Shown here: in pieces, positions 12,728-57,924 of the stretch
How the letters are laid out: each line of letters starts with the position of its first letter
Numbering within the stretch: position 1 is the stretch's first letter
Notes under the pieces: model-generated
What the model was told of the DNA's origin: nothing
The model's database searches: none
What the model saw: the letters and a program-made list of their open reading frames with translations, nothing else
NCBI GenBank assembly: GCA_036260945.1
Contig: DATALT010000002.1
Location: forward strand, 731,938 to 795,937
Direction of reading: 5' to 3'
Length of the DNA stretch: 64,000 nt
Origin: Candidatus Babeliales bacterium
GTDB lineage: Bacteria; Babelota; Babeliae; Babelales; JACPOV01
Made by a program: the position numbers and the translations under genes

Positions 12728-13399
12728 ATGAATTATTTGTTACTTGTACTTTTTGCTATGAATGTGACTGCAATAAGCGCAAATCCAAGAATTTTTACTC
12801 TCGAGAAAAATGCAAAAAATATTCCCGTCTGCACCGAAGGGGATAAAATAATATTCGAAGAGGAAAAAAAATCCACTTATAGAGTTTCCACGATAGTACC
12901 CGAAACAGAAAAAAATTACGGAGTGATATATCTTCGCAATTGCAACTGGGAATCACAAAACCATAAAAAAATATTTTTCGCGAATGATGAACTTAAAGTT
13001 GTCCAGGCTGCTACCGGGCAAGATCTTTTCAATGCGCGACAACTTCAAATTAAAACTCGATATTATAATTTTCAAACATGTAAGTCAAAACCTATTGTCT
13101 ATCGGGGAGAGAAATGGTACCTGCTTGAAAAACCAGAATGGCATCCCTCCGGCTCCACGCTAAAATTGCGTCAACAAAATTTTTTTGCCGAAACAGGAAT
13201 CACACTTGCGACCATTCACACACTTAAATTTTCAGCAGAAAAAATCTGGAACAACTATACCACTGCCGAGTTTCCTGGCCCAGAAGAATATTACAGAAAA
13301 TATTATTGGGGGCGCATTGCTGCGGTTACAACTGCCAGCGTAGCTACAACTCTTGGCTGCGCTTATTTAGCTTATAAAAAATTCTGGGCAAAAAATTAA
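12728..13399 (+). CDS. hypothetical secreted protein with C-terminal hydrophobic anchor plus basic tail
   Basis: Signal peptide; C-terminus ...AAVTTASVATTLGCAYLAYKKFWAKN. Confidence 0.5.
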   Translation: MNYLLLVLFAMNVTAISANPRIFTLEKNAKNIPVCTEGDKIIFEEEKKSTYRVSTIVPETEKNYGVIYLRNCNWESQNHKKIFFANDELKVVQAATGQDLFNARQLQIKTRYYNFQTCKSKPIVYRGEKWYLLEKPEWHPSGSTLKLRQQNFFAETGITLATIHTLKFSAEKIWNNYTTAEFPGPEEYYRKYYWGRIAAVTTASVATTLGCAYLAYKKFWAKN

Positions 13400-13409
13400 A
13401 CATTTACCA

Positions 13410-14027
13410 ATGAAGCAATTTGGTTGGCTTTTCTTTTTTCTCATCAGCTCTTTGCTTAACTGCATGGAGAAAGACTTTCCCATAAACAAAAATATTTGGA
13501 AACACCAAATCAAATGCTCCGATGGCATCACCTTTCTGACCATGCAAGAACTATCTCGGTTTCAATCACTCAAACCGCAAGCCAAGATTGCACTTCCAAC
13601 AATTTCAGTTTTGGCAATAAATATACTTTCACGTCCCGAAGCATCTTTCCCTGGAATTATGTACGAAATAAAAAAACAAAAAGCTCTTACCTGGGATAAA
13701 CTTCTTCACCTTTATAAAGCTGCAGAGTATCTAAAAGTATGCGATGAAAAAAAACAATTATGCTTAGAATTATTGAAGCGGAAATCTTATTCGGTTCATA
13801 ATCTTTTGGAAATAGAAAAAGTTTCGGCGCAAAATCGCTCTATTACATTAGAAAATGGCACCCTTACGATTAAAACTGGTTACTTAAAAACACTCGAAGG
13901 CATCCAGGCTCTTGCAGACAAAAAAATTTCAGCGTATCAAAAAAGCGTTACACGTATTATCATTTGGTTATTACTCATGTCAAAAACCAATAAAATCTCT
14001 AGACGTTTCCGAAAACCGACTGAATAA
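13410..14027 (+). CDS. hypothetical protein (possible N-terminal part of a frameshifted gene)
   Basis: ORF with signal-like N-terminus; overlaps the next ORF by about 115 nt in another frame across poly-A tracts. Confidence 0.4.
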   Translation: MKQFGWLFFFLISSLLNCMEKDFPINKNIWKHQIKCSDGITFLTMQELSRFQSLKPQAKIALPTISVLAINILSRPEASFPGIMYEIKKQKALTWDKLLHLYKAAEYLKVCDEKKQLCLELLKRKSYSVHNLLEIEKVSAQNRSITLENGTLTIKTGYLKTLEGIQALADKKISAYQKSVTRIIIWLLLMSKTNKISRRFRKPTE

Positions 14028-14550
14028 ATTAAACTTGGAACTCATTCTTGAAAATTTTCCTGAACTTACCTTCATTAAGAGCCACAGCAACAGTATATCT
14101 GAGGTCGTTTTTCCTGAGAATCCACCAAATCAGCATTGTTTAATTGATCTTCGCAAGAACCTTTTTTATAATTTTGATCTTAATACAAAAAATAACGATA
14201 AACTTGCCAAAAAAACGTTTTGGTCTCGATTGCACAGTAAATTGCCATCGCAAGAATCGGATCAATTTACATTAGGTTTATTCAGCGTTGGTCTTGCCGC
14301 TTCGGGGATCCATGCAATTATACCACTCGCCAAGCTTTTCCTCGGAATCGAACACTTTGAAAAAAGGGAGAACAAAAAGGCATGGCATAAACCAATACCC
14401 TTTTTATTTCCTATTTTAAGTTCGTACCCATTTGAAACTGCTGCTTTAAGTACGTTTCTGCTTTCGTGGGTTGCAGTTCTGGGAGCCTATGAATTGATTG
14501 CTCAACGCGCTAAAAACTCGCCTACATTTAACTTTGTGTATTTTGATTGA
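13912..14550 (+). CDS. hypothetical protein with leucine-rich-repeat-like segment (possible C-terminal part of a frameshifted gene)
   Basis: TTG start only; LDVSENRLNKLNLELILENFPELTFIKSHSNSISEVV fits the LxxLxLxxNxL periodicity; C-terminal TM. Confidence 0.35.
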   Translation: MQTKKFQRIKKALHVLSFGYYSCQKPIKSLDVSENRLNKLNLELILENFPELTFIKSHSNSISEVVFPENPPNQHCLIDLRKNLFYNFDLNTKNNDKLAKKTFWSRLHSKLPSQESDQFTLGLFSVGLAASGIHAIIPLAKLFLGIEHFEKRENKKAWHKPIPFLFPILSSYPFETAALSTFLLSWVAVLGAYELIAQRAKNSPTFNFVYFD

Positions 14551-14621
14551 AAAAATCTATGCAATAAATTAACCTGGGTACCTTTTTAAGATCACTATCG
14601 GATTGTACAAATTTTTTCAAT

Positions 14622-14650
14622 TTGACACGTAACGGTCAATTGGTATTCTG
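14622..14650 (+). promoter_or_regulatory. candidate sigma-70 promoter for the 14708 gene
   Basis: TTGACA (14622-14627), 17-nt spacer, TGgTATTCT extended -10 (14642-14650). Confidence 0.25.
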
Positions 14651-14707
14651 GTTAAAATCTAATCATTTTCGCGTTTGCTGCGTTGTTACGTTTTTTACCA
14701 ATGAAAT

Positions 14708-15607
14708 TTGATTCACGATATGGAGATCCTTGTGTTAAAAAAATCGGTGTTAATTACCTTACTTTTCCAGATAGCTACAAGTAACACCCTAAAAGCCGGA
14801 TTATTTGGACTGGAAAGCAATCCTCAAGCTCTCTTTGCCGCTACTGCTTTATGCGTTGCTGTTCCGACGATTTTATATAAAACCTGCTCCAATAAACCCC
14901 AAAAATCACGCGGTGAGCGTGAGCTCGAAAAATTTGTCGCCCATTTTAAAATTCCGGAAACGACAGATCTAACAACGTTAATAGATAAAGGCAATGATAT
15001 TGATCGCCTTATCAATGCCTATCGCGCACAGAGATTAATTGAGAATGAAAAGTTTAAGTATGTAGGTATACCCCTGAAATATGCAAAAAAGACATCCGAT
15101 GGACTTGTAGAGATCTTTGCACAAAAGATTACACCTAGTGACCAACAGGAAGAAAAATATTCGCTAGCTCAAGTGAAAGATTTTGCCTCATTTGTTGAAC
15201 TATCTGGATTGAGCGATTTCGGCGATAATGCTAATCAAAATATCATTTATGCCAATGATAAGCTTTATGTGATCGACACTGAAAACTCTTCATTTGAAGC
15301 TAATACCTATGGCTTTAAAGCAACTAATTTAAAGAGCTTAAAAATATTTTTTGGCAAAAGAATTTCAGATGACGCATCCCATTGGCTAGATGCTAAAATA
15401 GATGAATTGAAAACAACACATCAAGACTCGGGTATAGAATGCCCTACTATTGCAACTATGCCAGATCTTTATACAACTAGTTTTGATCTACAGCTTGTAA
15501 AAAAACAATTGCAGTTAAATAGAGCAGTTAAACAATATGGTCCAGAGTATGTGAAAATGAGAGCATTGTATAATGAATTGAGAAAAGACACAGAGACATT
15601 ATTATAA
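14708..15607 (+). CDS. hypothetical membrane-anchored protein with protein-kinase-like catalytic motif
   Basis: N-terminal TM region; LSDFGDNANQNIIYANDKLYVIDTE shows DxxxxN followed 17 aa later by an [IV]D[FT][EG] motif, as in the ePK/atypical kinase catalytic loop and DFG. Confidence 0.45.
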   Translation: MIHDMEILVLKKSVLITLLFQIATSNTLKAGLFGLESNPQALFAATALCVAVPTILYKTCSNKPQKSRGERELEKFVAHFKIPETTDLTTLIDKGNDIDRLINAYRAQRLIENEKFKYVGIPLKYAKKTSDGLVEIFAQKITPSDQQEEKYSLAQVKDFASFVELSGLSDFGDNANQNIIYANDKLYVIDTENSSFEANTYGFKATNLKSLKIFFGKRISDDASHWLDAKIDELKTTHQDSGIECPTIATMPDLYTTSFDLQLVKKQLQLNRAVKQYGPEYVKMRALYNELRKDTETLL

Positions 15608-15619
15608 ACGGTCTACAGC

Positions 15620-16294
15620 ATGAATAATGAATTTATCTTTATCATCCACTCTCTTATTATTAGCTTCTCAACTCTGTATGCGCTCCGCATAGGTAAAGAT
15701 GCACTTATCGCGCTCGTTGCGACGCTGAGCATTATTGCAAACTTGTTTGTCACCAAGCAAATTGCTCTGGGCGGATTTATTGTTACCGCTGCCGATGCCT
15801 ATACAATCGGTGCCGTTCTTTCGCTTAATATGCTCCAGGAATATTTTGGCAGCAAAACAGCAATTCGCGCAATATGGATAAGTTTTTTTATGATGTTTGT
15901 CGCAGCCATTGCCGGACAAATTCAGCTTTGGTATCTGCCAGCACTCTGCGATTCGATGCATCCTCATTTTCAGGCGCTTTTATGCAATAGCCCCCGCATT
16001 ATTGCTGCATCGCTCATTGCCTATTTAGCATCTCAGCATCTGGATCGAGCGATTTTTGCATGGCTCTCTAAGCAATTATCGGGAAATCTCATGATCGCCC
16101 GCTTTTGCAGCTCAACGATTATTGCCCAGCTGGTGGACACCCTTCTATTCACCTTTTTAGGGCTTTATGGCATAGTAGAATCTGTGTGGGACGTTGTCCT
16201 TATCAGCTATTTTATTAAACTATGCGCCGTAATACTTACCATTCCAGCTATCTGGCTATCGAGGTTTATAGGCCAAATGACCAATAGGCCATGA
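15620..16294 (+). CDS. yhhQ: queuosine precursor transporter (YhhQ/DUF165 family)
   Basis: About 224 aa multi-TM protein with YhhQ-family conserved blocks; immediately upstream of tgt. Confidence 0.75.
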   Translation: MNNEFIFIIHSLIISFSTLYALRIGKDALIALVATLSIIANLFVTKQIALGGFIVTAADAYTIGAVLSLNMLQEYFGSKTAIRAIWISFFMMFVAAIAGQIQLWYLPALCDSMHPHFQALLCNSPRIIAASLIAYLASQHLDRAIFAWLSKQLSGNLMIARFCSSTIIAQLVDTLLFTFLGLYGIVESVWDVVLISYFIKLCAVILTIPAIWLSRFIGQMTNRP

Positions 16295-17424
16295 ATTTAC
16301 CGTTTAGATTTGAACTCATTCACCAATCAAAAAAATCACGTGCCCGCGTAGGAAGAATTCATACGCCGCATGGAGCAATTGATACTCCTAATTTTGTCGC
16401 CGTTGGCACCAACGCTACGCTCAAGGCTCTCGATAGCAAAACGGTGGATGATATTGGCCTTCAGCTGATGTTTTGCAATACCTATCACTTAATGCTCCAT
16501 CCTGGTACCGATACGGTTGCCAAGGCGGGCGGTTTGCATAAATTCATGAACCGTCGCCAGCCGCTCATTACCGATTCTGGCGGATTTCAAGTATTTAGTT
16601 TGGCATATGGCGGCGTAAAAGATGAGCTGAAAAGTAAGGGCCAAAAAAAATTAACCAATTCTGTGATTAAAATCGATGAAGAGGGCGTTCTCTTTCGCTC
16701 CTATCGGGACGGTGCTGCCGTTTTACTCACGCCCGAAACCTCGGTGCAAGCGCAAAAAGAGCTTGGGGCCGATATCATTATTCCTTTTGATGAATTGCCT
16801 CCCTATCATATTGATCCAACCGTTCTGAAAAAATCGCTCGCGCGTACCCATCGCTGGGAAAAACGATCTCTTGATTATCATCTTAAACACGCAAATAATC
16901 AGGCAATGTATGCAGTGATCCATGGCGGCATTAATCCGGAAATGCGCAAGGAAAGTGCCCAATATTTAACCAATTTAGCATTTGATGGCTTTGCTATCGG
17001 GGGTAGCTTAGGAAAATCCCGCATCGAAATGATTGAAATGCTGACACATCTCATGCCTGAAATTCCTGTTGATAAACCAAACCATTTGCTCGGGATTGGC
17101 GATCTACCTTCGCTTGAAGCTGCAGTCCCTTTAGGAATAGATACGTTTGATAGTTCTCATCCAACTAAATGCGCACGCCACGGATTATTGTTTACGTTTA
17201 ATGGCTTTGTAAAAATTGAAAAAAATGAAAATAAACAATCGTTTGAGCCGATTGATAAAAACTGCACCTGCTTAACGTGCACAACGTACACCCGTTCATA
17301 CGTACATCATCTTTTTAAAGCGCATGAAGTTACTGGCCATATTCTTGCCACCATTCATAATCTTCATTTCATGGTCCAACTTATGGCACAGTATCGACAA
17401 CGCATTCTTAACGACGAAATATAA
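16291..17424 (+). CDS. tgt: queuine tRNA-ribosyltransferase
   Basis: Conserved N-terminus (GRIHTPHGAIDTPNFVAVGT) and zinc site CTCLTCTTYTRSYVHHL. Confidence 0.9.
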   Translation: MNLPFRFELIHQSKKSRARVGRIHTPHGAIDTPNFVAVGTNATLKALDSKTVDDIGLQLMFCNTYHLMLHPGTDTVAKAGGLHKFMNRRQPLITDSGGFQVFSLAYGGVKDELKSKGQKKLTNSVIKIDEEGVLFRSYRDGAAVLLTPETSVQAQKELGADIIIPFDELPPYHIDPTVLKKSLARTHRWEKRSLDYHLKHANNQAMYAVIHGGINPEMRKESAQYLTNLAFDGFAIGGSLGKSRIEMIEMLTHLMPEIPVDKPNHLLGIGDLPSLEAAVPLGIDTFDSSHPTKCARHGLLFTFNGFVKIEKNENKQSFEPIDKNCTCLTCTTYTRSYVHHLFKAHEVTGHILATIHNLHFMVQLMAQYRQRILNDEI

Positions 17425-17429
17425 AATCA

Positions 17430-18170
17430 ATGAGAGAAATTCTTTCTTTACAAAATGATCACATAAAAGATCTTGTTCGCCTCGCGCACGAGGCAAGCGA
17501 ACGCAAACATCAACAAAAATTTATCGCTGAAGGTATACGCACTGTTAGCACGCTTCTGAAAAGCAAAATGCATTTAGTGGAACTTATTTCAACGCATTTT
17601 ATGCTGATGCAAGCGCACGAAGTTGCGCCGGATGAAAAAATTACGGTCGTTTCCGACGCTGTACTGAACAAAATAAGCCCGAGCAGTTCACCGAGCGGCA
17701 TTTTGGGTGTTTTTGAGATTCCGCAACACGCGAAAAATGAACCACTAAGTTCAGGAATTGTATTGTCCGGCATTTCAGATCCTGGAAATATGGGCACCTT
17801 AATCCGCACCTGCGCAGCAATAGGGAAAAAAACAGTCGTGGTTCTTGAAGGGGTTGATCCTTTTAATCCGAAAGTAATTCAAGCGACTGCTGGCGCGATC
17901 GGATTAGTAAATATTTTCCAATGTACGTGGCCAGAATTTCTCACGCGCAAAAAAGATATGCAACTTTTTGGATTGGTAGTTCAAGACGGCAAACCGATGC
18001 ACAAATTAGCTGAAAATAGTTTATTAATGATAGGCAGTGAAGCGCATGGCATCCCAGAAGAATATTTATCTGCATGTGATGAACTTATCACTCTCTCAAT
18101 GCCGGGCGGAACTGAAAGTTTAAATGCTGCCATTGCAGGTTCGATTGCGATGTACCTTGGATTTTTATAA
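17430..18170 (+). CDS. TrmH/SpoU-family RNA 2'-O-methyltransferase
   Basis: SpoU methylase motifs (GNMGTLIRTCAA, ESLNAAIAGSIAMY). Confidence 0.75.
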   Translation: MREILSLQNDHIKDLVRLAHEASERKHQQKFIAEGIRTVSTLLKSKMHLVELISTHFMLMQAHEVAPDEKITVVSDAVLNKISPSSSPSGILGVFEIPQHAKNEPLSSGIVLSGISDPGNMGTLIRTCAAIGKKTVVVLEGVDPFNPKVIQATAGAIGLVNIFQCTWPEFLTRKKDMQLFGLVVQDGKPMHKLAENSLLMIGSEAHGIPEEYLSACDELITLSMPGGTESLNAAIAGSIAMYLGFL

Positions 18171-18292
18171 AATTCAATTTGCTCATCAAATTTTATGAGA
18201 AAACTGAACGATCACGCGCTACCACGACTTGCCCAATTTATTGATACTTTCTACACTCATAAGTAGAAAATTTCCAGCTTCACCGCTTTTTT

Positions 18293-19633
18293 TTGTCACC
18301 AAAGGTTGCAATTTCCATGGCACAAACGCAAAAACTTTCATTGCTCGATGCAATACTCATTAATATAAACGTTATGTTTGGCACTGGCGTGCTGATCAAT
18401 ACGGTAAATTTAGCGGTAATCGCAGGATTTCTAGGCTTTGCAAGCTATATTACGGTAGCACTTTTAATGCTTCCCCTCATTTTTTCTATCGCAGCAACGT
18501 TGAATCGCCATCCATCAGGCGGATTTTATGCGTATGCTGCAACCGATATTCATCCAGCGGTTGGCTTTTTAAGCGCATGGTCGTACTTTGTTGGAAAATT
18601 AGCATCCGCAGCGTTGCTCATCCATATTTTTACTTCAACCATGAAAGTAATTATTCCCGCTTTGGATTCAATACCTTCATTGCCAATTGACTTTGCAATT
18701 CTCGGGCTGTTTACATGGCTCAATATGTTCAATATTAAAACCGGCACGCGCATTACGTACGGTTTTATCTTTTGCAAATTCACACCAATTATTTTTGCAA
18801 TCTTAAGTTGCTTGGCATTATTCTCAAAATGGCATATTCCAGTCGATAGTATGTTATGGGCAGGAATCCCATCCACCATCCCACTCGTGCTTTACGCATT
18901 TGTTGGTTTCGAAGTAGCATGCTCGATTAGTAATTCGATCGAAGATGCTGAAAAAAATGGCCCGAAATCCATCTTGTACTCTTTTGGGATCGTAGTTTTT
19001 CTAACCGTGCTTTACCAACTGCTCATGTTTGCGACTATTGGCGAAGGGCTCACGCAACTACCTAATTTTTTAGGCATTTTTAAAGTAGTTCTTAATGAAA
19101 TTATACCATCAGCCGGTGCTTTCAAAGCGGTTTTGTTAAAATTATTTTATATCGCCGGCGCCTCATCCGCACTCGGTGGAAGCTATGGCATTTTATTTAG
19201 TAACTCATGGAACTTGTATACGCTCGCCCAATTTAAACATATCCCCTTTGCAAAGTTCTTCACTTCGCTTAATAATTATCAGGTGCCATTTATGTGCGTA
19301 CTTGCTGAAAGTGCAATTTGCGCAGGCTATTTATTGCTCACCGCAGGTCATCAAGTAACATTGCAGCAAATTAGCGTTTTAGGATGCACCATTGCGTATG
19401 CATGCAGCGTGCTTGGGCTTATTAAAGCGCACCGCCACGAATCACTTAGCTCAAATCCCTTTGTTGCATGGGCCGCTATAGGAAGCTGCCTCTTGCTTCT
19501 TGGTAGCTGCATTCGCAATTTCATCTCGAGCGGAATTATCTATCTTGGATTCTTTGGCATATTAATAGCGCTTGGCATGATACTTTATGCAGCAACAGCT
19601 CTTTCTGGCTCAGCGAATCTTAAGCGTCATTAA
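18293..19633 (+). CDS. APC-family amino acid permease
   Basis: About 12 TM segments; amino-acid/polyamine/organocation family-like N-terminal motif (INVMFGTGVLI). Confidence 0.75.
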   Translation: MSPKVAISMAQTQKLSLLDAILININVMFGTGVLINTVNLAVIAGFLGFASYITVALLMLPLIFSIAATLNRHPSGGFYAYAATDIHPAVGFLSAWSYFVGKLASAALLIHIFTSTMKVIIPALDSIPSLPIDFAILGLFTWLNMFNIKTGTRITYGFIFCKFTPIIFAILSCLALFSKWHIPVDSMLWAGIPSTIPLVLYAFVGFEVACSISNSIEDAEKNGPKSILYSFGIVVFLTVLYQLLMFATIGEGLTQLPNFLGIFKVVLNEIIPSAGAFKAVLLKLFYIAGASSALGGSYGILFSNSWNLYTLAQFKHIPFAKFFTSLNNYQVPFMCVLAESAICAGYLLLTAGHQVTLQQISVLGCTIAYACSVLGLIKAHRHESLSSNPFVAWAAIGSCLLLLGSCIRNFISSGIIYLGFFGILIALGMILYAATALSGSANLKRH

Positions 19634-20671
19634 CGCGATCAAGCACAAAATAAGTGAAATGATGCCAAAGCGAATCGTAATTTTTGCTTCTTGCCAACCA
19701 AGCAGCTCAAAATGATGATGAATTGGCGCCATTTTAAATATTCGCTTACCGCGATAACGGTACGAATAAACTTGCATCATCACCGATAACGCCTCAACAA
19801 CAAACAAGCCTCCCGCAATGCACAAAAGCAATTCTTGCTTTGCCATGAGCGCCATTAACGCAAGTGCACCCCCCAGGGCTAACGATCCAACATCTCCCAT
19901 GAAAATTTGCGCAGGATAGGCATTGTACCACAAAAAGCCAATCGAGGCGCCCACGAGCGCTGCGCCAACCACTGCCAATTCTGCAGTTCCTGCAAATGGA
20001 ATATGCAAATAGTTAGCGAACATATAATGGCCAGCTGCATAGCAAATTAACGAAAAGGTGGCAAAATTAGGAATAAGAGAACCTATTGCAAGCCCATCGA
20101 GTCCATCGGTTAAATTTACTGCATTGCTCGCTCCAACCATGATAAACGTCGCCCACAAAATAAAAAATATTCCGATGTTTGGATTAAGAGATTTAAAAAA
20201 TGGAAAACTAATCGAAGTGGAAACGCCGTTGAGAAACATAGAAATTGCGCAACATGCAGCAACTACGCATTGCGATAAAAATTTCATGCGCGATGAAATG
20301 CCTTTGCGCGTTTTAATTTTTAACCAATCATCCCAAGCACCAATCACACCAAAACCAACCAAGCCAAAAATCATAATGAGTATTTGATAATGCAAAATAG
20401 GAGCCCAGAGCAAAACCGTCGCCAACACAACGAATAGAATAAACACACCGCCCATCGTTGGCATATCATCTTTCTCTTTATGCCGCTCAGGAGTCCATTC
20501 TCGCGCTTTTGATCTAAAAAATTTTTTTGATGTTTCAATAAAAAATTCGCCGAACAAAAAAGAAAAACAAAGTGAAGTTAACAAAGCTGCCATTGCGCGA
20601 AAGCTCACATAATGCAACACGTTCCAAAATGAAGATGTTGCTTTAAAATACATGGATAAATAATACAGCAT
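19610..20671 (-). CDS. mraY: phospho-N-acetylmuramoyl-pentapeptide transferase
   Basis: Conserved NAVNLTDGLDGLA and HHHFE motifs; 10 TM segments. Confidence 0.9.
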   Translation of the reverse strand: MLYYLSMYFKATSSFWNVLHYVSFRAMAALLTSLCFSFLFGEFFIETSKKFFRSKAREWTPERHKEKDDMPTMGGVFILFVVLATVLLWAPILHYQILIMIFGLVGFGVIGAWDDWLKIKTRKGISSRMKFLSQCVVAACCAISMFLNGVSTSISFPFFKSLNPNIGIFFILWATFIMVGASNAVNLTDGLDGLAIGSLIPNFATFSLICYAAGHYMFANYLHIPFAGTAELAVVGAALVGASIGFLWYNAYPAQIFMGDVGSLALGGALALMALMAKQELLLCIAGGLFVVEALSVMMQVYSYRYRGKRIFKMAPIHHHFELLGWQEAKITIRFGIISLILCLIALMTLKIR

Positions 20672-20776
20672 TTGAAATCCTGACGAATGTAATATTCAAT
20701 TTTTTTTACTATCAGTTAGAATAATACGCAATTCACTATCTGTGAACTTTAGTTGCAAAATTAATAAGGGGCATAT

Positions 20777-22105
20777 ATGAAATTTTTATTCATCATTTTT
20801 TTTGCGATAATTTTTACTATAAATGCAGCACACGTTGAAAAAAAAATTAACGATCCGAAGACAATTTATGATGATCCAGCTGTTTTAACAGAAAAGAGCT
20901 CTGGCGAAAATCCACATCCGACCTATACCGAAGGAGGTATTCTGCAAGAGGCATCGAAGACTTCGCGTAATTCTAGTGGCGCTAGTGTCGCACAGGAGGC
21001 TACAAAAAAAGTTATTTCTCCAAGGCCATTATCGCCAAAATCTGTAGCTGACTCTATTTTCGTAAAAAAAGACAAGGTCGAGCGTAAAAGCACAGCAGTC
21101 CCGGCAACACCGCCTATTACACTTTCTGAAGAAGAGATGAAAAACGTTTCTAATGAAAAACGAATTTCTAAAAGAATCAATGAGTTGGAACTAAAAAACG
21201 CACTTCTGCGTAAAGATTGGGCGGGATGGAATGCATGGCTACATTCAGATGTTAAACAAAAAAAGCAAAAATGGATTGAGCTCGCAGCATGGAATCGAAT
21301 GGCTGTGGCAACCAAATATTTAGAAAAAATTGAAGATGATATTCAAAAATGGAAAGATCGAAAAAAACAATTAAAAAGCGTTTCAGCCCACGCTCTTTCG
21401 CCATCGGAAAAAGAAGAGAAGGAAAATTATGAAAAAGCAGCAATTATCTTGGCCCGGCCGATTGAAGACCGTACTCCGGCAGAAAAGGATATTCTGCTAA
21501 GTATTAAGAAAAAACATAAAGTTGAAGAGAGCGATTTTTATGACGAATTCTTCAAATTACAACATAAGGGACTTCGCGTTCCACCAGCACTTTTGAGAGA
21601 TTTTGTTAGTAACCCCTTGCTCGTTTTTCACGATAAAGCTATAAATAGCGATGGCCAAATTGAGCCAGACTTTACTCCACTTATCGATGATAATGAATTA
21701 GAAGAAAATGAAAAAATAGAAAAATATAAGTATTCAGCCCCAAAAAGATCAACCTACAAGATTCTAGGTGATTTTAAGAACGCAGTAAAAAAATGGGAAA
21801 ATGCATATTATGAAAAAGAAGACCAATTAATTTCAAGACAAAAAAATTATGAGAAATTTTCAGATGCAAGTAAGTATATGGAAATTGCGATTCATGATCT
21901 TAAAATAAAAGAAATAGAAGAAGCACATACAAAAACCATTAAAGATCTGGATAGAGTAATATCAACCTTGGCAGCCACTAACGAATCTCTAAAAAAAGGG
22001 GTTTCTCCAAGCAGCCGCAGAAATGGCTTTCTAGTCGGCGCAGCGAGTGCAACAACGGTTTGTACTTTGATTGGCACTTTTGTCTGGTGGAAATATAAAA
22101 AATAA
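20777..22105 (+). CDS. hypothetical secreted coiled-coil protein with C-terminal anchor
   Basis: Signal peptide; K/E-rich coiled-coil; C-terminus NGFLVGAASATTVCTLIGTFVWWKYKK. Confidence 0.5.
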   Translation: MKFLFIIFFAIIFTINAAHVEKKINDPKTIYDDPAVLTEKSSGENPHPTYTEGGILQEASKTSRNSSGASVAQEATKKVISPRPLSPKSVADSIFVKKDKVERKSTAVPATPPITLSEEEMKNVSNEKRISKRINELELKNALLRKDWAGWNAWLHSDVKQKKQKWIELAAWNRMAVATKYLEKIEDDIQKWKDRKKQLKSVSAHALSPSEKEEKENYEKAAIILARPIEDRTPAEKDILLSIKKKHKVEESDFYDEFFKLQHKGLRVPPALLRDFVSNPLLVFHDKAINSDGQIEPDFTPLIDDNELEENEKIEKYKYSAPKRSTYKILGDFKNAVKKWENAYYEKEDQLISRQKNYEKFSDASKYMEIAIHDLKIKEIEEAHTKTIKDLDRVISTLAATNESLKKGVSPSSRRNGFLVGAASATTVCTLIGTFVWWKYKK

Positions 22106-22143
22106 TTCTTTAATAGTTTTTTAATTTAGGGACGCGAATCTAT

Positions 22144-22746
22144 ATGAAATATCATGTACTTATCTTTACTTCATTGGTTATTCACAATTTTGCCTTTGGA
22201 ATGGAAACGAAAAACAAATCAATTCCAGCAATAAAAACAGGAATTCCTTGGGATAATTTAACTCCTGGAAATAAGCTGGATCTACTACTCGAAAAGTACC
22301 AACCGGCTATCGCCAGCTATCGCAAGACAGTGAACGAAAAAATTCAAAGTACTAATGGCAAGCGTGGCACTACTTCTTATAAAACAGAAGAAATTATCGA
22401 TGAAAATCATTCTGTTTTTGAAAAAAATGGAATTATACTTACTTTTGATAAAGTCCCGAAAGATACACACGATACAGGCCCAGCGTATCTCATTGAACCT
22501 ATGGAAAATTTGCTTTCTTTATTGGAACAATCAAACCTTAAAAATGAACAATTAATAATCGATTGCTCAGCTCATTATAACGCCGATCATGCGCTGAATA
22601 AAAAGATTGCTTTCACAGACCTACATGTTACTCACGAGAAAAGAAAATCTCAGGCCTATGGATTTGCTTTTGGCGCGCTAGCAATTGGAAGTATCTGGGC
22701 AGCAACAAAAGCATTTGTATGGTGGAAATCTCGAAAAGCAGCATAA
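22144..22746 (+). CDS. hypothetical secreted protein with C-terminal anchor (paralogous C-terminus to the 20777 gene)
   Basis: Signal peptide; C-terminus YGFAFGALAIGSIWAATKAFVWWKSRKAA. Confidence 0.5.
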   Translation: MKYHVLIFTSLVIHNFAFGMETKNKSIPAIKTGIPWDNLTPGNKLDLLLEKYQPAIASYRKTVNEKIQSTNGKRGTTSYKTEEIIDENHSVFEKNGIILTFDKVPKDTHDTGPAYLIEPMENLLSLLEQSNLKNEQLIIDCSAHYNADHALNKKIAFTDLHVTHEKRKSQAYGFAFGALAIGSIWAATKAFVWWKSRKAA

Positions 22747-22794
22747 AAACAGCCACATTTTTAGCTTCTCAACTTTAAGAATTTAATTATCCAT

Positions 22795-22838
22795 GCGCCA
22801 ATTGATTTTCATTTTGAAATTAATTGGCGCATTTTGTT
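22795..22838 (+). terminator. intrinsic terminator after the 22144-22746 gene
   Basis: GCGCCAATT...AATTGGCGC 9-bp stem (22795-22830) followed by ATTTTGTTT. Confidence 0.55.
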
Positions 22839-23019: not shown

Positions 23020-23077
23020 GGAGATTGTGGCTAGCAGGAGTAGTAAAGTAAAACAAAAACTCTATTATGGAGAACAT

Positions 23078-23491
23078 ATGAAATATACCTCACTGAGAGC
23101 CTCTTGCCTTATAACTATTGGTCTGATTGCGGCGCCTGCGCTTTGCGTAGCTACCGTTTCAGCTGATAACGCGGCTCAATCACACGTCAACCCTGTGGAT
23201 AAAGCGGTCCAAATCCTGGAAGCCTATGCACAGCAACAAAAATCGTTCAGAGAATTCGTCGATGAACTTATTAAAATGATCCAAGAACATCGAGAAACGG
23301 TAAAAACTCTTATCGATCAGCCGGTTCCTGATAAAGATGCCTATATCGATAACTTGATTGTCCGTCTTGAAAGTATCAAGGGTACGAAGAATCCGATAGC
23401 TGCCTTAAATACTCTGAAAGATTATCGTTGGCTGCTAGATAGATTTAAGCGATACACTGGATACGTTGTATCCCTCATTAAAAGAAACTAA
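23078..23491 (+). CDS. hypothetical small secreted protein
   Basis: Start at MKYTSL with a GGAGA Shine-Dalgarno; signal peptide ending ATVSA. Confidence 0.45.
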   Translation: MKYTSLRASCLITIGLIAAPALCVATVSADNAAQSHVNPVDKAVQILEAYAQQQKSFREFVDELIKMIQEHRETVKTLIDQPVPDKDAYIDNLIVRLESIKGTKNPIAALNTLKDYRWLLDRFKRYTGYVVSLIKRN

Positions 23492-26320: not shown

Positions 26321-27619
26321 TTAATATTTACGCTGCAACAATAATCCGCCAGCAAAAAGAGCCGCAAAGAGTGGTATCATGCCAACTAAGCGCTCGTGCA
26401 TCGTGCTGCCAAAATTATAGAAGCTATAGATTGCAAGCCCTAAGACTGCAATAATCGCAGCAATGGTAACTAAAATTGAAGCCATCGATTTTTTTTCACT
26501 GCTCAATTGTATTTTCAAGAGCGAGATAAAAGGCAAAAGGAACGCAGTGAAGATACCAAGATTGCAAAGGCTAAAAGCATAATCGATATTGGTAATATGG
26601 CGCACCAAAAAAAACGCAACAAGCCCTTGTAAAACGGTAGCAACCCAAGGGCGACCACGTTTACTTAAGCGAGAAAGCATTGGAGAAAAATAGAAAAGTT
26701 TTTCTTCAGCCATTGAATGGAGCAAAATTGAATTGCCATTCATCATTCCGTTTGCGCCCGCAAAAATTGCAAGAACCGAGGCGATTGAAATAAGGAAACT
26801 CAACAAAACTGCTATCGCTGGAATCGGCCATGCAACAAAATCTCCAAATGCAGGCGCACCCAATTCTGAAAGTTTTTGAACTCCCATTATATTAATCACA
26901 CTGAAGTTAAACAGCGTATAAATAAGGGTCGTCAAAACAAAACCAATCAAAATAGCTCTCGGTGCATTTTTTTTGCTATCTTCAATCAAATGGCTAATGC
27001 TTGCGCAATATTCAAATCCGAAATAACCAAATATGGCCATTGGCATAGCAAACGGAACAAGCGCTAATTCTTGGCTGCTTACTGCTAATGTTTGCGGTTT
27101 AAATACGAAAGGCAAAACAAGAATACCCGCAATAAGTGGAATAATTTTAGTAATGGTTAACCCATTGAGCAATCTACCGAGCGATTTAAGGCTCATAAGA
27201 TTTAAGAAAGTGGTACTGCCGATGATAAGTAAATCAAACGCAAAAGTATGGTCGGTGAGCCAATTTGATCCCATCATAACGGTCAATGTTTTTCTCAATG
27301 CCATAAATTCGACGACAAGCGCAAACGTATACCCAACGATATAAAGCCAACCACTGGCAAAACCTGCCGTTCGATTGAGGCCTTCTTTAGCGTAAAGATA
27401 GAATCCCCCCGCTCCTGGAAACATACGGCTTAATTGTACCGTACTCAGAACAATAGGTAAGAAAATAAGGGCCACCATAATCCAAGCCAAATAACTTGCG
27501 TTTCCGGCGATTGCAGCCATGCTACCAGGGCCGATCAGGATACCGGATCCGATCATAATATTAAGATTCAGCAAAATGGCGGTGAACAACGAAATTTTGT
27601 GTTGTTTCATGATACCCAC
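26321..27619 (-). CDS. APC-family amino acid permease
   Basis: 12 TM segments; APC-like motifs; second permease paralog in the window. Confidence 0.75.
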   Translation of the reverse strand: MGIMKQHKISLFTAILLNLNIMIGSGILIGPGSMAAIAGNASYLAWIMVALIFLPIVLSTVQLSRMFPGAGGFYLYAKEGLNRTAGFASGWLYIVGYTFALVVEFMALRKTLTVMMGSNWLTDHTFAFDLLIIGSTTFLNLMSLKSLGRLLNGLTITKIIPLIAGILVLPFVFKPQTLAVSSQELALVPFAMPMAIFGYFGFEYCASISHLIEDSKKNAPRAILIGFVLTTLIYTLFNFSVINIMGVQKLSELGAPAFGDFVAWPIPAIAVLLSFLISIASVLAIFAGANGMMNGNSILLHSMAEEKLFYFSPMLSRLSKRGRPWVATVLQGLVAFFLVRHITNIDYAFSLCNLGIFTAFLLPFISLLKIQLSSEKKSMASILVTIAAIIAVLGLAIYSFYNFGSTMHERLVGMIPLFAALFAGGLLLQRKY

Positions 27620-42957: not shown

Positions 42958-43416
42958 ATGAAGATACATTACGTTGTATTGATCGCTTGCTGCTTTTTCT
43001 CTTCAAAAAATTATACCGCCTCGCGCGCTTCTCATTCACTCAGTGAACGGCCAGTGATGTATTTTCCCGTTCCACTTTATAATGAAAATGAACAGCGCGA
43101 AATTATCGAACACATCGATGATCAAATGGTGCAAAAACCAAAGCCCAATTGGCTTCGGCACTTACTGTGCATTATAGCAAATATTGGAAGAGCGATTCTT
43201 GAACGAGAAAATAAAGATCAAATGCATCTTCATGTGGGCAATATTTTTAATAATGTCGCTTCGCTTGCCCATGAATTTTCCACACGATCACTATCGGCTC
43301 ACGATAGAAAAAAAGCAATAGAACAATTAATTGAGCAAATCGAGGATCTTGCACAAACGCTCCCCGAGCCGGTTGTTGTTTGCGGCAAAAAAAATATCGT
43401 ATGCATCCAACGTTAG
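42958..43416 (+). CDS. hypothetical small secreted protein
   Basis: Signal peptide. Confidence 0.4.
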   Translation: MKIHYVVLIACCFFSSKNYTASRASHSLSERPVMYFPVPLYNENEQREIIEHIDDQMVQKPKPNWLRHLLCIIANIGRAILERENKDQMHLHVGNIFNNVASLAHEFSTRSLSAHDRKKAIEQLIEQIEDLAQTLPEPVVVCGKKNIVCIQR

Positions 43417-44165
43417 TAAGTATTCAGTACACGCTCAACGATATGTGGCACCATAGAATTACTTCATTTGCATCTGCCGTATGCACATCACTATATTTGA
43501 TAGGTTATTTTTTAACAACGCTTATTGTGAGCGGGCATACGAAAGTGCTTATAGATTTTTGCTGCGGCGCTTATCATCTTTTTTCAATCTTGTTTGTTCT
43601 TATTTTTGTATTGAATTATTTGCACCGGCTAGAGCACACTCATTTTTATCATTGGTTTTTAACGAGTGGATGCTCGCGGGCTGAATTCATCATTGGTGCT
43701 TTTGGCGCATTATGTATGCTGATGATTGCCACTGCGTTTCTATTTTTTTTGGCATCAATTCTTTTTTTACATCATCAAACGAATGTTTGGTTTTTTTACT
43801 TATGGCCCGTATTTTGTGCACACGCTCTTGAAGGAGTATTTCTTATTTCTTTTGCATATTTTTGGAGCACACTTCTTTCACTTTATTGGTGCTATGCAGC
43901 ACTTCTGGGATCATATCTGATTTGCCTTCTTAATCATTCTTGGATCGTGATAATCGAACAAAAAACAACTGGGATTGCGCGCGCTGCTTGCTTTGCATTT
44001 TATTATTTAATGCCAGATTTGGATCTTCTTAACATTCAATCGAACGTGATGTATGAGCTACCAATAAATTATTCACAATTATTTTTTGCTACAACCTACA
44101 TTCTCTGCTATTGTGCTCTGTTGCTAATAGGAACGGTCACAGTCTTTCAAAAAAAGAATCTATGA
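43401..44165 (+). CDS. hypothetical polytopic membrane protein
   Basis: Six or more hydrophobic segments. Confidence 0.4.
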   Translation: MHPTLVSIQYTLNDMWHHRITSFASAVCTSLYLIGYFLTTLIVSGHTKVLIDFCCGAYHLFSILFVLIFVLNYLHRLEHTHFYHWFLTSGCSRAEFIIGAFGALCMLMIATAFLFFLASILFLHHQTNVWFFYLWPVFCAHALEGVFLISFAYFWSTLLSLYWCYAALLGSYLICLLNHSWIVIIEQKTTGIARAACFAFYYLMPDLDLLNIQSNVMYELPINYSQLFFATTYILCYCALLLIGTVTVFQKKNL

Positions 44166-54831: not shown

Positions 54832-55836
54832 TTAATATGCTCTACCGCTTGTTGTTGCTACGGGTTGCTTGATCGTCATTGCTGGATTATCTCTTTGTGC
54901 CGGCTGCGATACATTCATCATGCCACTCTGATCTATTTGGCTTGATATATCAGCAGGCATATTTTTTTGTAAACCTGATAAGTGCAATTGTACTTTTGAA
55001 ATTCGGTCATCAAGCTTATCTATTTGGCCTTTGAGTTTTTGCGCTTGCGCACTGTTTTTATCTGCAATTGCATCATATTGAGTATGTAAAGCATCCATAT
55101 GCTGACCATAATCATCACGAAGTTTTTTCAATTGTGTTTGAACGTCATCCCATTTTTTATCTTGTGCAAGCTGATCCAACGCCATTGGATCCATTCCTGG
55201 CTCTATTTCTTCATCAACTAAATCGTATCCCCAATATGGATAGTAATCGTTGTACACAACACTAACCGCTTGTTGAGGAATTGCGTAATCATACCAAAGT
55301 GCTAATGCGCCTAAACCGAGAAGTCCTGCGCCCCATCCCCATGCCCATGGAGAAAGGCCCCAACCCCAGCCCCAGCCGCCCCACCAGCCGTTGCCCCAAC
55401 CGTGGTTACGCCAGCCATGATTTCCATGATGCGCAAATGAACGATTTCCTCGTGCGCCACGACCAGCACCCCTGCCTCTACCCATTCCACGCGCGCCACG
55501 CCCTGCACCTCTACCTGCAGCTCCTCTGCCCATTCCGCGAGCCCCCCCGCGACCCATACCTCGAGCGCCAGTTCGCGATATTCCGCGTCCGCCACCGGTT
55601 CGCGCCATCCCGCGGCCTCCACCAGTGCGAGCCATACCTCGTCCGCCACCGCGCCCCATACCGCCACGGCTCATTGATCTACCACCGCCACCGCGACTCA
55701 TGCCTCTACCACCGCCGCCACGTCCACCGCCTCCGCGGCCACCACCACCGTGGCCACCACCACCGCGAGCATCAAGCATATCAACAGCCATTACGCTGAT
55801 GATTGCTACGAGCACTATCGCCAAAAATTTCTTCAT
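54832..55836 (-). CDS. secreted low-complexity protein with RGG/GGGR repeats and a Trp-Gly-rich segment
   Basis: Signal peptide; about 25 degenerate GGGR(G/M) repeats; HGWRNHGWGNGWWGGWGWGWG block; C-terminal coiled-coil. Confidence 0.6.
   Translation of the reverse strand: MKKFLAIVLVAIISVMAVDMLDARGGGGHGGGGRGGGGRGGGGRGMSRGGGGRSMSRGGMGRGGGRGMARTGGGRGMARTGGGRGISRTGARGMGRGGARGMGRGAAGRGAGRGARGMGRGRGAGRGARGNRSFAHHGNHGWRNHGWGNGWWGGWGWGWGLSPWAWGWGAGLLGLGALALWYDYAIPQQAVSVVYNDYYPYWGYDLVDEEIEPGMDPMALDQLAQDKKWDDVQTQLKKLRDDYGQHMDALHTQYDAIADKNSAQAQKLKGQIDKLDDRISKVQLHLSGLQKNMPADISSQIDQSGMMNVSQPAQRDNPAMTIKQPVATTSGRAY
55300..55770. repeat. GC-rich degenerate tandem repeat (CCACCGCC-like units) encoding the RGG repeats
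   Basis: Local GC island in an AT-rich genome; all alternative-frame ORFs across it are repeat artifacts. Confidence 0.7.
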
Positions 55837-56080: not shown

Positions 56081-56710
56081 ATGCGTACAATTAAAGCTTT
56101 TTTGGTAATTGCGCTCATTGCACAACCATTGCAAGCAAAACTTCTCAATTTTGAAAACCAAACTACAGCACAAAAAATTGCATTGGGTGCTGGAACTTTG
56201 GGCTATTTAGGATATCTGGGATATAAATATTATTCTTGCAAAAAAGAAGTCGCAGAAAATAAACACCTTATTAAACAACATGAAGGAAAAGGCACAGTTC
56301 CTGTACCAAAAAAAATTGAAGAAATGTTTGAAGCGAAGAACTTAGCATCATTAGCAAAAAATCCTAACCGCGAATACCGCTGGAAACCTCAAGTGGAACG
56401 AATCCAAACAGAAAAACGCAAGTTCGTTCCGGGTTGCCTCACTCATATAACAAGATCGCTATGTCATCCATTTGTTGTTGAAAATCTATACATTACAGTA
56501 AGTGAAAAAGATCCCGCGCAACTATTAATAAAGTCAAATTCACAGGGTGAAGACAGTGATGCAAGCGCCATAGAAGATTATGGACAAAACCGCGTTTCAT
56601 TGCACGATTCAAAATTCAAAGTCAACGGATGGAAAGCGGCGGTTTTAATTCAAGCATCTATTGGATTGGGATTATTATGCCAACAAGCGGTACGTTTAAT
56701 GGGTAAATAA
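56081..56710 (+). CDS. secreted/membrane protein, paralog 1 of a 5-gene tandem family (bilobed N-terminal hydrophobic domain plus C-terminal anchor)
   Basis: GAAGGAG Shine-Dalgarno; signal peptide then IALGAGTLGYLGYLGY; C-terminus AAVLIQASIGLGLLCQQAVRLMGK. Confidence 0.55.
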   Translation: MRTIKAFLVIALIAQPLQAKLLNFENQTTAQKIALGAGTLGYLGYLGYKYYSCKKEVAENKHLIKQHEGKGTVPVPKKIEEMFEAKNLASLAKNPNREYRWKPQVERIQTEKRKFVPGCLTHITRSLCHPFVVENLYITVSEKDPAQLLIKSNSQGEDSDASAIEDYGQNRVSLHDSKFKVNGWKAAVLIQASIGLGLLCQQAVRLMGK

Positions 56711-56822
56711 ATGAAAAGCTAACGCTTGTTTAACAGTTTCTAGTAAACGCATGTATTTATTTAAAAATTGTTACAGATTGCTATACTGAATCGGCTTTAA
56801 CAATTTTTAATGAGAGATTTTT

Positions 56823-57914: not shown

Positions 57915-57924
57915 ATCGACCACA

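What the first reader, a model, noticed from the sequence alone, without database searches (positions are those of the whole stretch)
12728..22746. Dispersed secreted proteins sharing a C-terminal 'G-F-x-x-G-A ... F-V-W-W-K' hydrophobic anchor
ORFs 12728-13399, 20777-22105 and 22144-22746 have unrelated bodies. All begin with a signal peptide and end with a near-identical Gly/Ala-rich hydrophobic helix followed by aromatic/basic residues (…GTFVWWKYKK, …KAFVWWKSRKAA, …LAYKKFWAKN). This is the architecture of C-terminal sorting signals (PEP-CTERM, GlyGly-CTERM and similar) or of tail anchors. The motif does not match any named sorting tag I know. It may define a lineage-specific sorting system, and its partner sortase-like enzyme may lie elsewhere in the genome.
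Basis: seen in the sequence. Interest (0 to 1): 0.55.

Follow-up and report, generated by a model that had tools for sequence, protein, structure and literature searches.

The report
Shared membrane anchor of two neighbouring genes
Two adjacent orphan genes of an uncultured Babeliales (Dependentiae/TM6) bacterium share an old, well-conserved C-terminal membrane-spanning tail, while the third gene only has the same general layout, so this looks like ordinary membrane anchoring and not a new protein-sorting system.

Summary
All three ORFs exist, are real genes (dN/dS below 1 against a sister genome), and have the layout signal-like N-terminus, soluble body, single C-terminal hydrophobic helix, Lys-rich end. 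The named motif (GFxxGA, 12 residues, FVWWK) occurs only in the two adjacent genes 20777-22105 (P2) and 22144-22746 (P3). Their tails align without gaps (shuffle p<2e-4; profile-profile E 5e-9). Their bodies show no detectable similarity. The tail of 12728-13399 (P1) is no more similar than its composition predicts (p 0.08-0.3) and scores nothing against the tail profile.

A tail profile searched against 1.84 billion cluster representatives found only P2, P3 and one metagenomic P2-like fragment. A DNA pattern for the motif found nothing in JGI metagenomes or IMG/VR. No curated sorting-signal model matches, and no rhomboid, CPBP, exosortase or sortase gene lies in the 64 kb.

The tails are more conserved than the bodies, and the P2/P3 duplication is old. 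Best reading: lineage-specific type I membrane proteins, with P2 and P3 probably co-transcribed and sharing a constrained stop-transfer anchor. Interest is low.

The parts
12728..13399 (+). P1, a 223-aa orphan protein (NCBI name: hypothetical protein VHO47_04370). Layout: signal-like N-terminus, fast-evolving body, C-terminal hydrophobic helix, then KKFWAKN. It shares the architecture only and is not a member of the FVWWK tail family.
   Evidence: ORF; name. The ortholog in the sister genome (L008 2494-3114) is 26% identical in the body and 75% in the tail, with overall dN/dS about 0.4. Not hit by the tail profile; shuffle p 0.08-0.3.
13298..13396 (+). P1 tail (residues 191-223): KYYWGRIAAVTTASVATTLGCAYLAYKKFWAKN. 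It is a putative stop-transfer anchor with an aromatic/Lys cytoplasmic end.
   Evidence: Hessa-scale sum is +2.55 for the best 19-residue window, within the range of real TM helices of MraY, the permease and Vut1 in the same window. The ortholog has a 4-residue deletion inside the helix.
20766..20771 (+). Shine-Dalgarno-like AAGGGG, 5 nt upstream of the P2 start codon.
   Evidence: Read from the sequence.
20777..22105 (+). P2, a 442-aa orphan protein. Layout: signal-like N-terminus (MKFLFIIFFAIIFTINAA), a Ser/Pro/Thr-rich region predicted without structure, long predicted helices, and the C-terminal FVWWK tail.
   Evidence: ORF. The ortholog P0004 / L008 8649-9962 is 58% identical in the body and 88% in the tail; dN/dS is 0.26 in the body and 0.14 in the tail. 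The AF2 model has low confidence (pLDDT 46.8) and is mostly helical. No Pfam or NCBIfam family matched.
22025..22102 (+). P2 tail (residues 417-442): GFLVGAASATTVCTLIGTFVWWKYKK.
   Evidence: DNA pattern hit, tail profile 82 bits, Hessa-scale sum +1.33.
22144..22746 (+). P3, a 200-aa orphan protein (VHO47_04420). Layout: signal-like N-terminus (..HNFAFG|METK), a body with no detectable similarity to P2, and the C-terminal FVWWK tail. It starts 38 nt after the P2 stop codon.
   Evidence: ORF; name. The ortholog P0002 is 84% identical in the body and 100% in the tail; tail dN is 0 while dS is 0.28.
22660..22743 (+). P3 tail (residues 173-200): GFAFGALAIGSIWAATKAFVWWKSRKAA.
   Evidence: DNA pattern hit, tail profile 77 bits. 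It matches the tail of P0003 at 23 of 26 residues, with dN 0.05 and dS 1.1-1.8.
22793..22832 (+). Terminator-like hairpin (17-bp stem followed by TTTGTTT) after P3. No such site lies between P2 and P3, so P2-P3 is probably one transcript.
   Evidence: This is a consensus scan only; no transcript data exist.

Best explanation
P1, P2 and P3 are lineage-specific, fast-evolving type I (N-out, C-in) inner-membrane proteins of a Babeliales (Dependentiae/TM6) bacterium.

Inferred mechanism:
- The N-terminal signal peptide sends each protein through Sec and is removed by signal peptidase I.
- The body ends up in the periplasm.
- The single C-terminal helix, rich in Gly, Ala, Ser and Thr, stops transfer and anchors the protein.
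- The Trp/Tyr residues sit at the cytoplasmic interface, and the Lys/Arg end stays in the cytoplasm (positive-inside rule).

Shown here: P2 and P3 are adjacent, and their anchors are homologous through an old duplication or tail exchange. They are probably co-transcribed; that rests only on gene spacing and a consensus terminator scan. The anchor sequence is under much stronger purifying selection than the bodies.

Inferred from that: the anchor does more than supply hydrophobicity. The conserved GFxxG(A) is a small-xxx-small helix-packing motif, and together with the FVWWK juxtamembrane end it most likely mediates packing of P2 with P3 or with a shared membrane partner.

P1 is an unrelated protein that happens to use the same generic architecture.
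For: - **Organism:** named Candidatus Babeliales / Dependentiae by the NCBI records for P3 and its ortholog.
- **Architecture:** a hydrophobic N-terminus plus one C-terminal hydrophobic segment and none between. The best middle windows sum to +8 to +15 on the Hessa scale; the tails sum to +1.3 to +3.5, inside the -2.1 to +3.9 range of true TM helices of MraY, the permease and Vut1 in this window. A K/R cluster follows directly.
- **Real genes:** orthologs sit in a syntenic sister genome, with dN/dS 0.26-0.40.
- **Tail more conserved than body:** P1 75% against 26%, P2 88% against 58%, P3 100% against 84%. Tail dN/dS is 0.22, 0.14 and 0. The P3 and P0003 tails give dN 0.05 against dS 1.1-1.8.
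- **Homology limited to the tail:**
- **Old duplication:** P2 and P3 tails are 50% identical at the DNA level and dS is saturated.
- **Operon-like layout:** 38-nt gap, and the only + strand terminator-like hairpin comes after P3.
- **Tail found only in these families:**. Scans with P2-family peptide patterns (one of them from the tail) confirmed no relative in species genomes or metagenomes.
- **Context:** in the cultured Dependentiae species Chromulinavorax destructans, 44% of CDS carry predicted signal peptides and this set is enriched in ORFans (PMC6561590). Signal-peptide orphans are therefore the norm in this phylum.
Against: - No dedicated signal-peptide or topology predictor was available. 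Cleavage of the N-terminal segment and the N-out/C-in orientation are inferred.
- P1 has no Lys or Arg in its n-region.
- The tails are only moderately hydrophobic, and P3 carries a Lys inside the segment (..AATKAFVWW..).
- Sequence conservation of the P3-type tail is higher than a purely passive anchor needs, so a recognition role is left open.
- P0003 carries the same tail without a signal peptide, which would put a P2-like domain on the other side of the membrane if that gene is intact.
- The AF2 models are too poor to help.
Confidence: 0.7

Rival explanations
1. The tail is a cleavable tripartite C-terminal sorting signal: signature GFxxGA, a TM helix and a basic cluster. An as-yet unidentified intramembrane enzyme encoded elsewhere in the genome recognises it, removes the helix and attaches or releases the protein. 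This would resemble PEP-CTERM/exosortase, GlyGly-CTERM/rhombosortase or MYXO-CTERM/myxosortase.
For: - The form matches the tripartite design described by Haft and co-workers. A signal-like N-terminus is present.
- The tail sits on bodies with no detectable homology to each other.
- The P3-type tail also occurs on a P2-like body in P0003.
- The tail is under strong purifying selection.
Against: - Only two client families exist, they are adjacent genes, and nothing else was found in 1.84 billion representatives or in the collection scans.
- No NCBIfam sorting-domain model matches, even with the isolated tails at E<=10.
- The best-conserved block (FVWWK) is at the cytoplasmic end, whereas sorting signatures lie at the outer end.
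- The basic cluster is Lys-rich, not Arg-rich.
- For systems with one or few clients the enzyme is expected in the same operon. Here the neighbours are mraY, a small signal-peptide protein and mnmG.
- No rhomboid, CPBP, exosortase or sortase domain was found in the window genes scanned against Pfam or in the precomputed Pfam table for 12.1-32.7 kb.
Confidence: 0.08
2. The N-terminal hydrophobic segment is not cleaved, so the proteins are held in the membrane at both ends (a signal anchor plus a C-terminal TM) with the body in the periplasm. Alternatively they insert as tail-anchored proteins with the body in the cytoplasm.
For: - The -3/-1 sites are not ideal in P2 (N or I at -3).
- P1 lacks a positively charged n-region.
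- P0003 has the tail but no signal peptide.
Against: - The h-regions are short (about 12-15 residues) and are followed by small residues (AISA, NAA, AFG) that are conserved in the orthologs. This is typical of cleaved signals.
- P0003 is a single 1-kb metagenomic contig and may be a truncated gene.
Confidence: 0.12
3. P1 belongs to the same tail family as P2 and P3 but has diverged beyond recognition. The three tails would then descend from one mobile C-terminal module.
For: - Same overall layout and a similar small-residue-rich composition.
- An aromatic residue plus KK just after the helix.
- The P1 tail is also far more conserved than its body (75% against 26%).
Against: - No significant similarity was found.
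- The motif positions differ: no GFxxGA, no FVWWK.
- The helix length is variable, with a 4-residue indel between orthologs.
Confidence: 0.1
4. P2 and P3 are exported effectors whose C-terminal helix inserts into a host (protist) membrane after secretion.
For: - Dependentiae are intracellular parasites with large, orphan-rich predicted secretomes.
- The bodies evolve fast.
Against: - A Sec signal followed by a hydrophobic stop-transfer helix and a positive-inside end would normally arrest the protein in the bacterial inner membrane.
- There are no eukaryote-like domains and no secretion-system genes nearby.
Confidence: 0.05

Closest known systems
Bacterial type I bitopic membrane proteins (cleavable Sec signal peptide plus C-terminal stop-transfer anchor; textbook example M13 procoat, whose mature C-terminus is TM + KLFKKFTSKAS; recalled from general knowledge)
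   Same: An N-terminal signal, a single hydrophobic helix near the C-terminus, interfacial aromatic residues and a short Lys-rich cytoplasmic end. There are no other TM segments.
   Different: The bodies are orphans with no detectable homologs outside a very narrow Babeliales lineage. The topology has not been tested experimentally.
Tripartite C-terminal protein-sorting signals (LPXTG/sortase, PEP-CTERM/exosortase, GlyGly-CTERM/rhombosortase, MYXO-CTERM and JDVT-CTERM/CPBP-type myxosortases; Haft et al., 10.1101/2023.06.07.544157 and PMC3237569)
   Same: A short motif, then a TM helix, then a basic cluster at the extreme C-terminus of proteins that carry signal peptides. The tail is shared by bodies with no detectable homology to each other.
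   Different: - Only two adjacent client families are known.
- No curated model matches.
- Conservation peaks at the cytoplasmic end (FVWWK), not the outer end.
- The basic cluster is Lys, not Arg.
- No cognate enzyme gene lies nearby.
GxxxG / small-xxx-small transmembrane helix-packing motifs (glycophorin A type; general knowledge)
   Same: G-F-x-x-G-A is invariant in P2, P3, their orthologs and P0003, and it lies within a helix rich in Gly, Ala, Ser and Thr.
   Different: No evidence of oligomerisation exists. The motif is common in TM helices and is not diagnostic by itself.
Tail-anchored membrane proteins
   Same: A single TM helix within about 30 residues of the C-terminus.
   Different: Tail-anchored proteins lack an N-terminal signal peptide. 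P1, P2 and P3 all have one. Only the metagenomic fragment P0003 lacks it.

Membership tests
Tripartite C-terminal sorting signal (sortase / exosortase / rhombosortase / myxosortase class) | Signature motif, TM helix and basic cluster at the extreme C-terminus of a protein with an N-terminal signal peptide | tested here: met
   Met in form only: GFxxGA, a helix of about 20 residues, then K(S/Y)(R/K)K. The basic cluster is Lys-rich, whereas the cluster is usually Arg-rich. The signal peptide was judged by eye.
Tripartite C-terminal sorting signal (sortase / exosortase / rhombosortase / myxosortase class) | The same short domain recurs on several otherwise unrelated proteins of a proteome, or, in single-client systems, is encoded next to its enzyme | tested here: not met
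   The tail profile finds only P2, P3 and P0003 in 1.84 billion representatives and only P2 and P3 in the window. The two clients are tandem genes, and no enzyme gene is adjacent. The whole proteome of the MAG could not be scanned with proteome-sized E-values.
Tripartite C-terminal sorting signal (sortase / exosortase / rhombosortase / myxosortase class) | Match to a curated sorting-domain HMM (NCBIfam/TIGRFAMs) | tested here: not met
   No family matched the full proteins at E<=1. For the isolated 40-aa tails at E<=10, the only hit was a chance match of the P1 tail to a FetB permease model (E 0.15, 11.6 bits against a cut-off of 410).
Tripartite C-terminal sorting signal (sortase / exosortase / rhombosortase / myxosortase class) | Co-occurring cognate processing enzyme (sortase, exosortase/archaeosortase, rhombosortase, CPBP-type protease) | tested here: inconclusive
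   None was found in the 64-kb window: Pfam scans of 27 window proteins and the precomputed Pfam table for 12.1-32.7 kb show nothing of this kind.
Tripartite C-terminal sorting signal (sortase / exosortase / rhombosortase / myxosortase class) | Proteolytic removal of the C-terminal helix and re-attachment of the mature protein | not testable with these tools
   This needs proteomics.
Type I bitopic inner-membrane protein | N-terminal Sec-type signal peptide | tested here: met
   Heuristic only. The proteins have short n-regions, h-regions of 12-15 residues, and small residues at -1 (AISA|N, NAA|H, AFG|M) that are conserved in the orthologs.
Type I bitopic inner-membrane protein | Exactly one further TM-grade hydrophobic segment, near the C-terminus | tested here: met
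   Tail windows sum to +1.3 to +3.5 on the Hessa scale, within the range of genuine TM helices in the same window. The best internal windows sum to +8 to +15.
Type I bitopic inner-membrane protein | Positive-inside flank after the anchor | tested here: met
   The C-terminal ends are KKFWAKN, KYKK and KSRKAA.
Type I bitopic inner-membrane protein | Experimentally determined N-out/C-in topology | not testable with these tools
   This needs reporter fusions or protease protection assays.
Tail-anchored protein | No N-terminal signal peptide; post-translational insertion through the C-terminal TM | tested here: not met
   P1, P2 and P3 all have signal-like N-termini. Only P0003 lacks one.
FVWWK-tail family (defined here: GFxxGA-12 aa-FVWWK-xx-K) | Significant match to the tail profile | tested here: met
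   Met for P2 (82 bits) and P3 (77 bits). Not met for P1, which is absent from the 30 best hits, all of which apart from P2 and P3 score under 4 bits and shows shuffle p of 0.08-0.3.

The most novel reading that the evidence does not exclude
The P3-type tail is an exchangeable recognition module. It is kept almost unchanged (23 of 26 residues, dN/dS about 0.03-0.05) between P3 and a distantly related P2-like protein. A dedicated membrane partner would read it. That partner could be a minimal, lineage-private sorting or assembly factor, or P2 and P3 could form an obligate pair through their anchors. This would be a two-client sorting or assembly signal restricted to one Babeliales lineage.
Probability: 0.08. 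Interest if true: 0.45.

Novelty: new member of a known kind. Interest (0 to 1): 0.12.

Why it matters
It matters little beyond annotation. The result gives three hypothetical proteins of an uncultured protist parasite a likely location: periplasmic domains tethered to the inner membrane. It links P2 and P3 as a probable operon pair with a shared, constrained anchor. It also removes a candidate new sorting system from the list. If the constrained anchor did mediate a specific P2-P3 or partner interaction, it would be a small handle on envelope organisation in Dependentiae, a phylum with almost no experimental cell biology.

Tried and rejected
- **Word-indexed search with the 3-tail alignment.** It collected only 3 candidates and scored none. 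This is uninformative because of the tool's design, and it cost one of the three searches.
- **P1 full-length homolog search.** It found only P1 itself. Even the 34%-identical syntenic ortholog was missed, so P1 is effectively an orphan.
- **Scans of GTDB species genomes** with the P2-family alignment and with the conserved 677-aa neighbour, and a JGI metagenome scan with the P2 family. Pattern matches were at chance level and none was confirmed. Neither this MAG nor its sister genome seems to be in the species-representative set, so syntenic loci from more distant Babeliales could not be obtained.
- **Exact DNA pattern for the motif** in JGI metagenomes and IMG/VR: 0 hits. The positive control in the window gave 2 hits.
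- **AlphaFold2 of P3 and P2**: pLDDT 35 and 47. These are too poor for fold searches, so none were run.
- **Pfam, NCBIfam, PHROGs, PADLOC and PDB sequence searches** of P1-P3: nothing significant.
- **Extending the window** by exact look-up of the edge genes: not on record.
- **Recent duplication or gene conversion of the tail:** rejected. P2 and P3 tail DNA is only 50% identical, with saturated dS.
- **Tail conservation caused by an overlapping RBS or terminator:** rejected. The tails end 38 nt before the next start codon and 47 nt before the hairpin. The Val codon of FVWWK (GTC/GTA/GTT) and other third positions differ between copies.

Full report
**What is there.** The window comes from an uncultured member of the Babeliales (Dependentiae/TM6). 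The 200-aa product of 22144-22746 is identical to NCBI 'MAG TPA: hypothetical protein VHO47_04420 [Candidatus Babeliales bacterium]'. Its 86%-identical ortholog is from a 'Candidatus Dependentiae bacterium'.

All three are present, in conserved synteny (murB-P1-vut1-tgt-spoU-permease-mraY-P2-P3-x-mnmG), in the sister genome GCA_016191325.1 (locus L008). Between the two genomes their dN/dS is 0.26-0.40, against 0.02-0.07 for mraY, tgt, mnmG and spoU. They are therefore real protein-coding genes that evolve quickly.

No Pfam, NCBIfam, PHROGs, PADLOC or PDB sequence match of any significance was found.

**Checking the observation.** Each protein starts with a short hydrophobic segment followed by small residues (..AISA|NPR..TINAA|HVEK..AFG|METK), and these features are kept in the orthologs. 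Each has only one other hydrophobic segment, in its last 30 residues, directly followed by Lys/Arg.

- On the Hessa scale the tails sum to +1.3 to +3.5 per 19 residues.
- That lies inside the range of the true helices of MraY, the amino-acid permease and Vut1 from the same window (-2.1 to +3.9).
- It is far from the best internal windows of P1-P3 (+8 to +15).

The specific motif, however, belongs only to P2 and P3. Their tails align without a gap as GFxxGA-12 residues-FVWWK-xx-K. The supporting tests are:

- BLASTP E 3e-4.
- Smith-Waterman score 59 against 21.5 +/- 4.6 for shuffled tails, with 0 of 5000 shuffles reaching it.
- hhalign of the two families aligning only the last 32 columns, probability 95.9%, E 5e-9.
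- The back-translated pattern hitting the window exactly twice, with none expected.

P1's tail (..GRIAAVTTASVATTLGCAYLAYKKFWAKN) is no more similar than composition predicts. Shuffle p is 0.08 against P2 and about 0.3 against P3. It is not among the hits of a tail-profile hmmsearch on all 663 six-frame ORFs of the window, where P2 scores 82 bits, P3 77 bits and the next-best ORF under 4 bits. The two proteins that truly share a tail are adjacent genes, so they are not dispersed.

**How widespread is the tail?**

- A 40-position profile of the tails, searched with full HMMER against 1.84 billion cluster representatives of about 15 billion proteins, returned four proteins: P3, the P2 ortholog P0004, P0003 and one spurious repeat protein.
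- P0003 comes from a 1-kb ENA metagenome contig. Its body is homologous to the C-terminal half of P2 (26% identity over 204 residues, E 9e-9). Its tail is of the P3 type (23 of 26 identical).
- The exact DNA pattern for the motif gave 0 hits in JGI metagenome contigs and in IMG/VR.
- P2-family peptide patterns gave only chance-level matches, none confirmed, in 185,579 species genomes and in the metagenomes.

A tail as divergent from both types as P2 is from P3 (about 27 bits) would escape a database-wide search. A looser superfamily therefore cannot be excluded without scanning the organism's own proteome, which these tools could not reach. There is no positive evidence for one.

**Evolution of the tail.** In all three genes the tail is much better conserved than the body between the two genomes.

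| Gene | Body identity | Tail identity | Body dN/dS | Tail dN/dS |
|---|---|---|---|---|
| P1 | 26% | 75% | 0.34 | 0.22 |
| P2 | 58% | 88% | 0.26 | 0.14 |
| P3 | 84% | 100% | 0.35 | 0 |

(Identities; dN/dS.)

Between P3 and the much more distant P0003, tail dN is 0.05 while dS is 1.1-1.8. P2 and P3 tail DNA is only 50% identical with saturated dS, and third codon positions differ between copies, including the Val codon of FVWWK (GTC/GTA/GTT). The shared tail therefore reflects an old duplication or exchange maintained by selection on the protein. It is not a recent copy, and it is not an overlapping nucleic-acid signal.

P1's helix tolerates a 4-residue deletion in the ortholog, as expected of a generic anchor.

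**Context.**

- P2 has a Shine-Dalgarno-like AAGGGG 5 nt upstream of its start codon.
- P3 starts 38 nt after P2's stop codon.
- The only + strand terminator-like hairpin in the region (17-bp stem, 22793-22832) follows P3. A P2-P3 bicistronic transcript is likely.
- The neighbours are mraY (divergent), a 137-154-aa signal-peptide protein and mnmG.
- The window genes scanned against Pfam, together with the precomputed Pfam table for 12.1-32.7 kb, show LspA, Lgt, PgpA, ABC-2, MFS, CNNM and MscS membrane proteins. They show no rhomboid, CPBP/Rce1-like, exosortase or sortase domain.

**Most likely mechanism.** The steps below are inferred.

- Sec-dependent export, with removal of the signal peptide.
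- The C-terminal helix acts as a stop-transfer anchor.
- Trp/Tyr sit at the cytoplasmic interface, and the Lys-rich end is held in the cytoplasm by the positive-inside rule.
- The result is periplasmic domains tethered to the inner membrane, that is, type I bitopic proteins.

The invariant GFxxG(A), a small-xxx-small motif, and the strongly constrained FVWWK end suggest that the P2 and P3 anchors pack against each other or against a common membrane partner. That is an inference from conservation only.

The picture fits what is known of the phylum. In the cultured Chromulinavorax destructans, 44% of CDS have predicted signal peptides and that set is enriched in ORFans (PMC6561590).

**Comparison with known systems.** In form the tails resemble the tripartite sorting signals catalogued by Haft and colleagues: signature motif, TM segment and basic cluster (10.1101/2023.06.07.544157). 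They fail the tests that define such systems.

- There is no recurrence on many unrelated proteins.
- No curated model matches, even for the isolated tails.
- No adjacent enzyme gene exists, although for systems with one or few clients the enzyme is expected in the same operon.
- Conservation peaks on the cytoplasmic side and not at the outer signature position.
- The basic residues are Lys and not Arg.

The proteins are not tail-anchored proteins in the strict sense, because they carry signal peptides.

**Verdict.** The membrane-anchor reading is supported, and the new-sorting-system reading is not. One amendment applies, which is that the duplication is old. The organism's own proteome could not be scanned with proteome-sized E-values, so a looser tail family remains untested.

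This is an ordinary feature of orphan envelope proteins in a poorly studied phylum, and interest is low. The residual novel possibility is that the strongly constrained P3-type tail is a recognition module for a private partner. I put this at about 8%.

Noticed in passing
window 56081-59325 (+): Five tandem small ORFs (156-221 aa). Each has a signal-like N-terminus, a Gly/Ala-rich hydrophobic segment at about residues 30-55, and a weakly hydrophobic C-terminal segment with a basic end. BLAST finds no pairwise similarity. MAFFT shows only faint shared motifs such as HTAQV and FPxxF. This may be a highly divergent paralog array of small envelope proteins. It is a better example of a repeated architecture than the reported finding.
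   Followed up: partly
window 54832-55836 (-): A 334-aa protein with a signal peptide. It is followed by about 140 residues of Gly/Arg repeats (GGGGRG, RGMGRG) and a Trp/Gly-rich stretch (GWRNHGWGNGWWGGWGWGWG), then a Gln/Asp/Lys-rich C-terminal half.
   Followed up: no
window 13400-15610 (+): A roughly 2.2-kb segment that is absent from the sister genome, where the P1 ortholog is followed directly by vut1. It holds ORFs 13410-14027 and 13912-14550, which overlap in different frames and look like one frameshifted gene with LRR-like repeats (LDVSENRLNKLNLELILENFPEL) and two C-terminal hydrophobic segments. It also holds ORF 14708-15607. None has a Pfam match.
   Followed up: partly
L006 321-932 (protein P0003, ENA ERZ27257208): A 203-aa protein with a body like the C-terminal half of P2, a P3-type tail and no signal peptide. 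Stop codons occur upstream in all frames. It is either a truncated gene or a genuinely tail-anchored relative. It shows that the P3-type tail is attached to a P2-family body in another lineage.
   Followed up: partly
window 23027-23491 (+): A small signal-peptide protein just downstream of P3. Between the two genomes its N-terminus is conserved (95% over the first 22 residues of the shorter ATG-start form, 23078-23491, that was aligned) but its C-terminus is rapidly diverging (25% over the last 32 aligned columns). This is the opposite pattern to P1-P3.
   Followed up: no
window 43380-44165 (+): A 261-aa protein with about five predicted TM segments and no Pfam match. It is the only unassigned multi-pass membrane protein in the window. 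It lies 20 kb from P2/P3, and nothing links it to them.
   Followed up: no
window 18293-19633 (+) and 26321-27619 (-): Two paralogous amino-acid permeases (28% identity, E 8e-47) flank the P2/P3-mnmG region.
   Followed up: no
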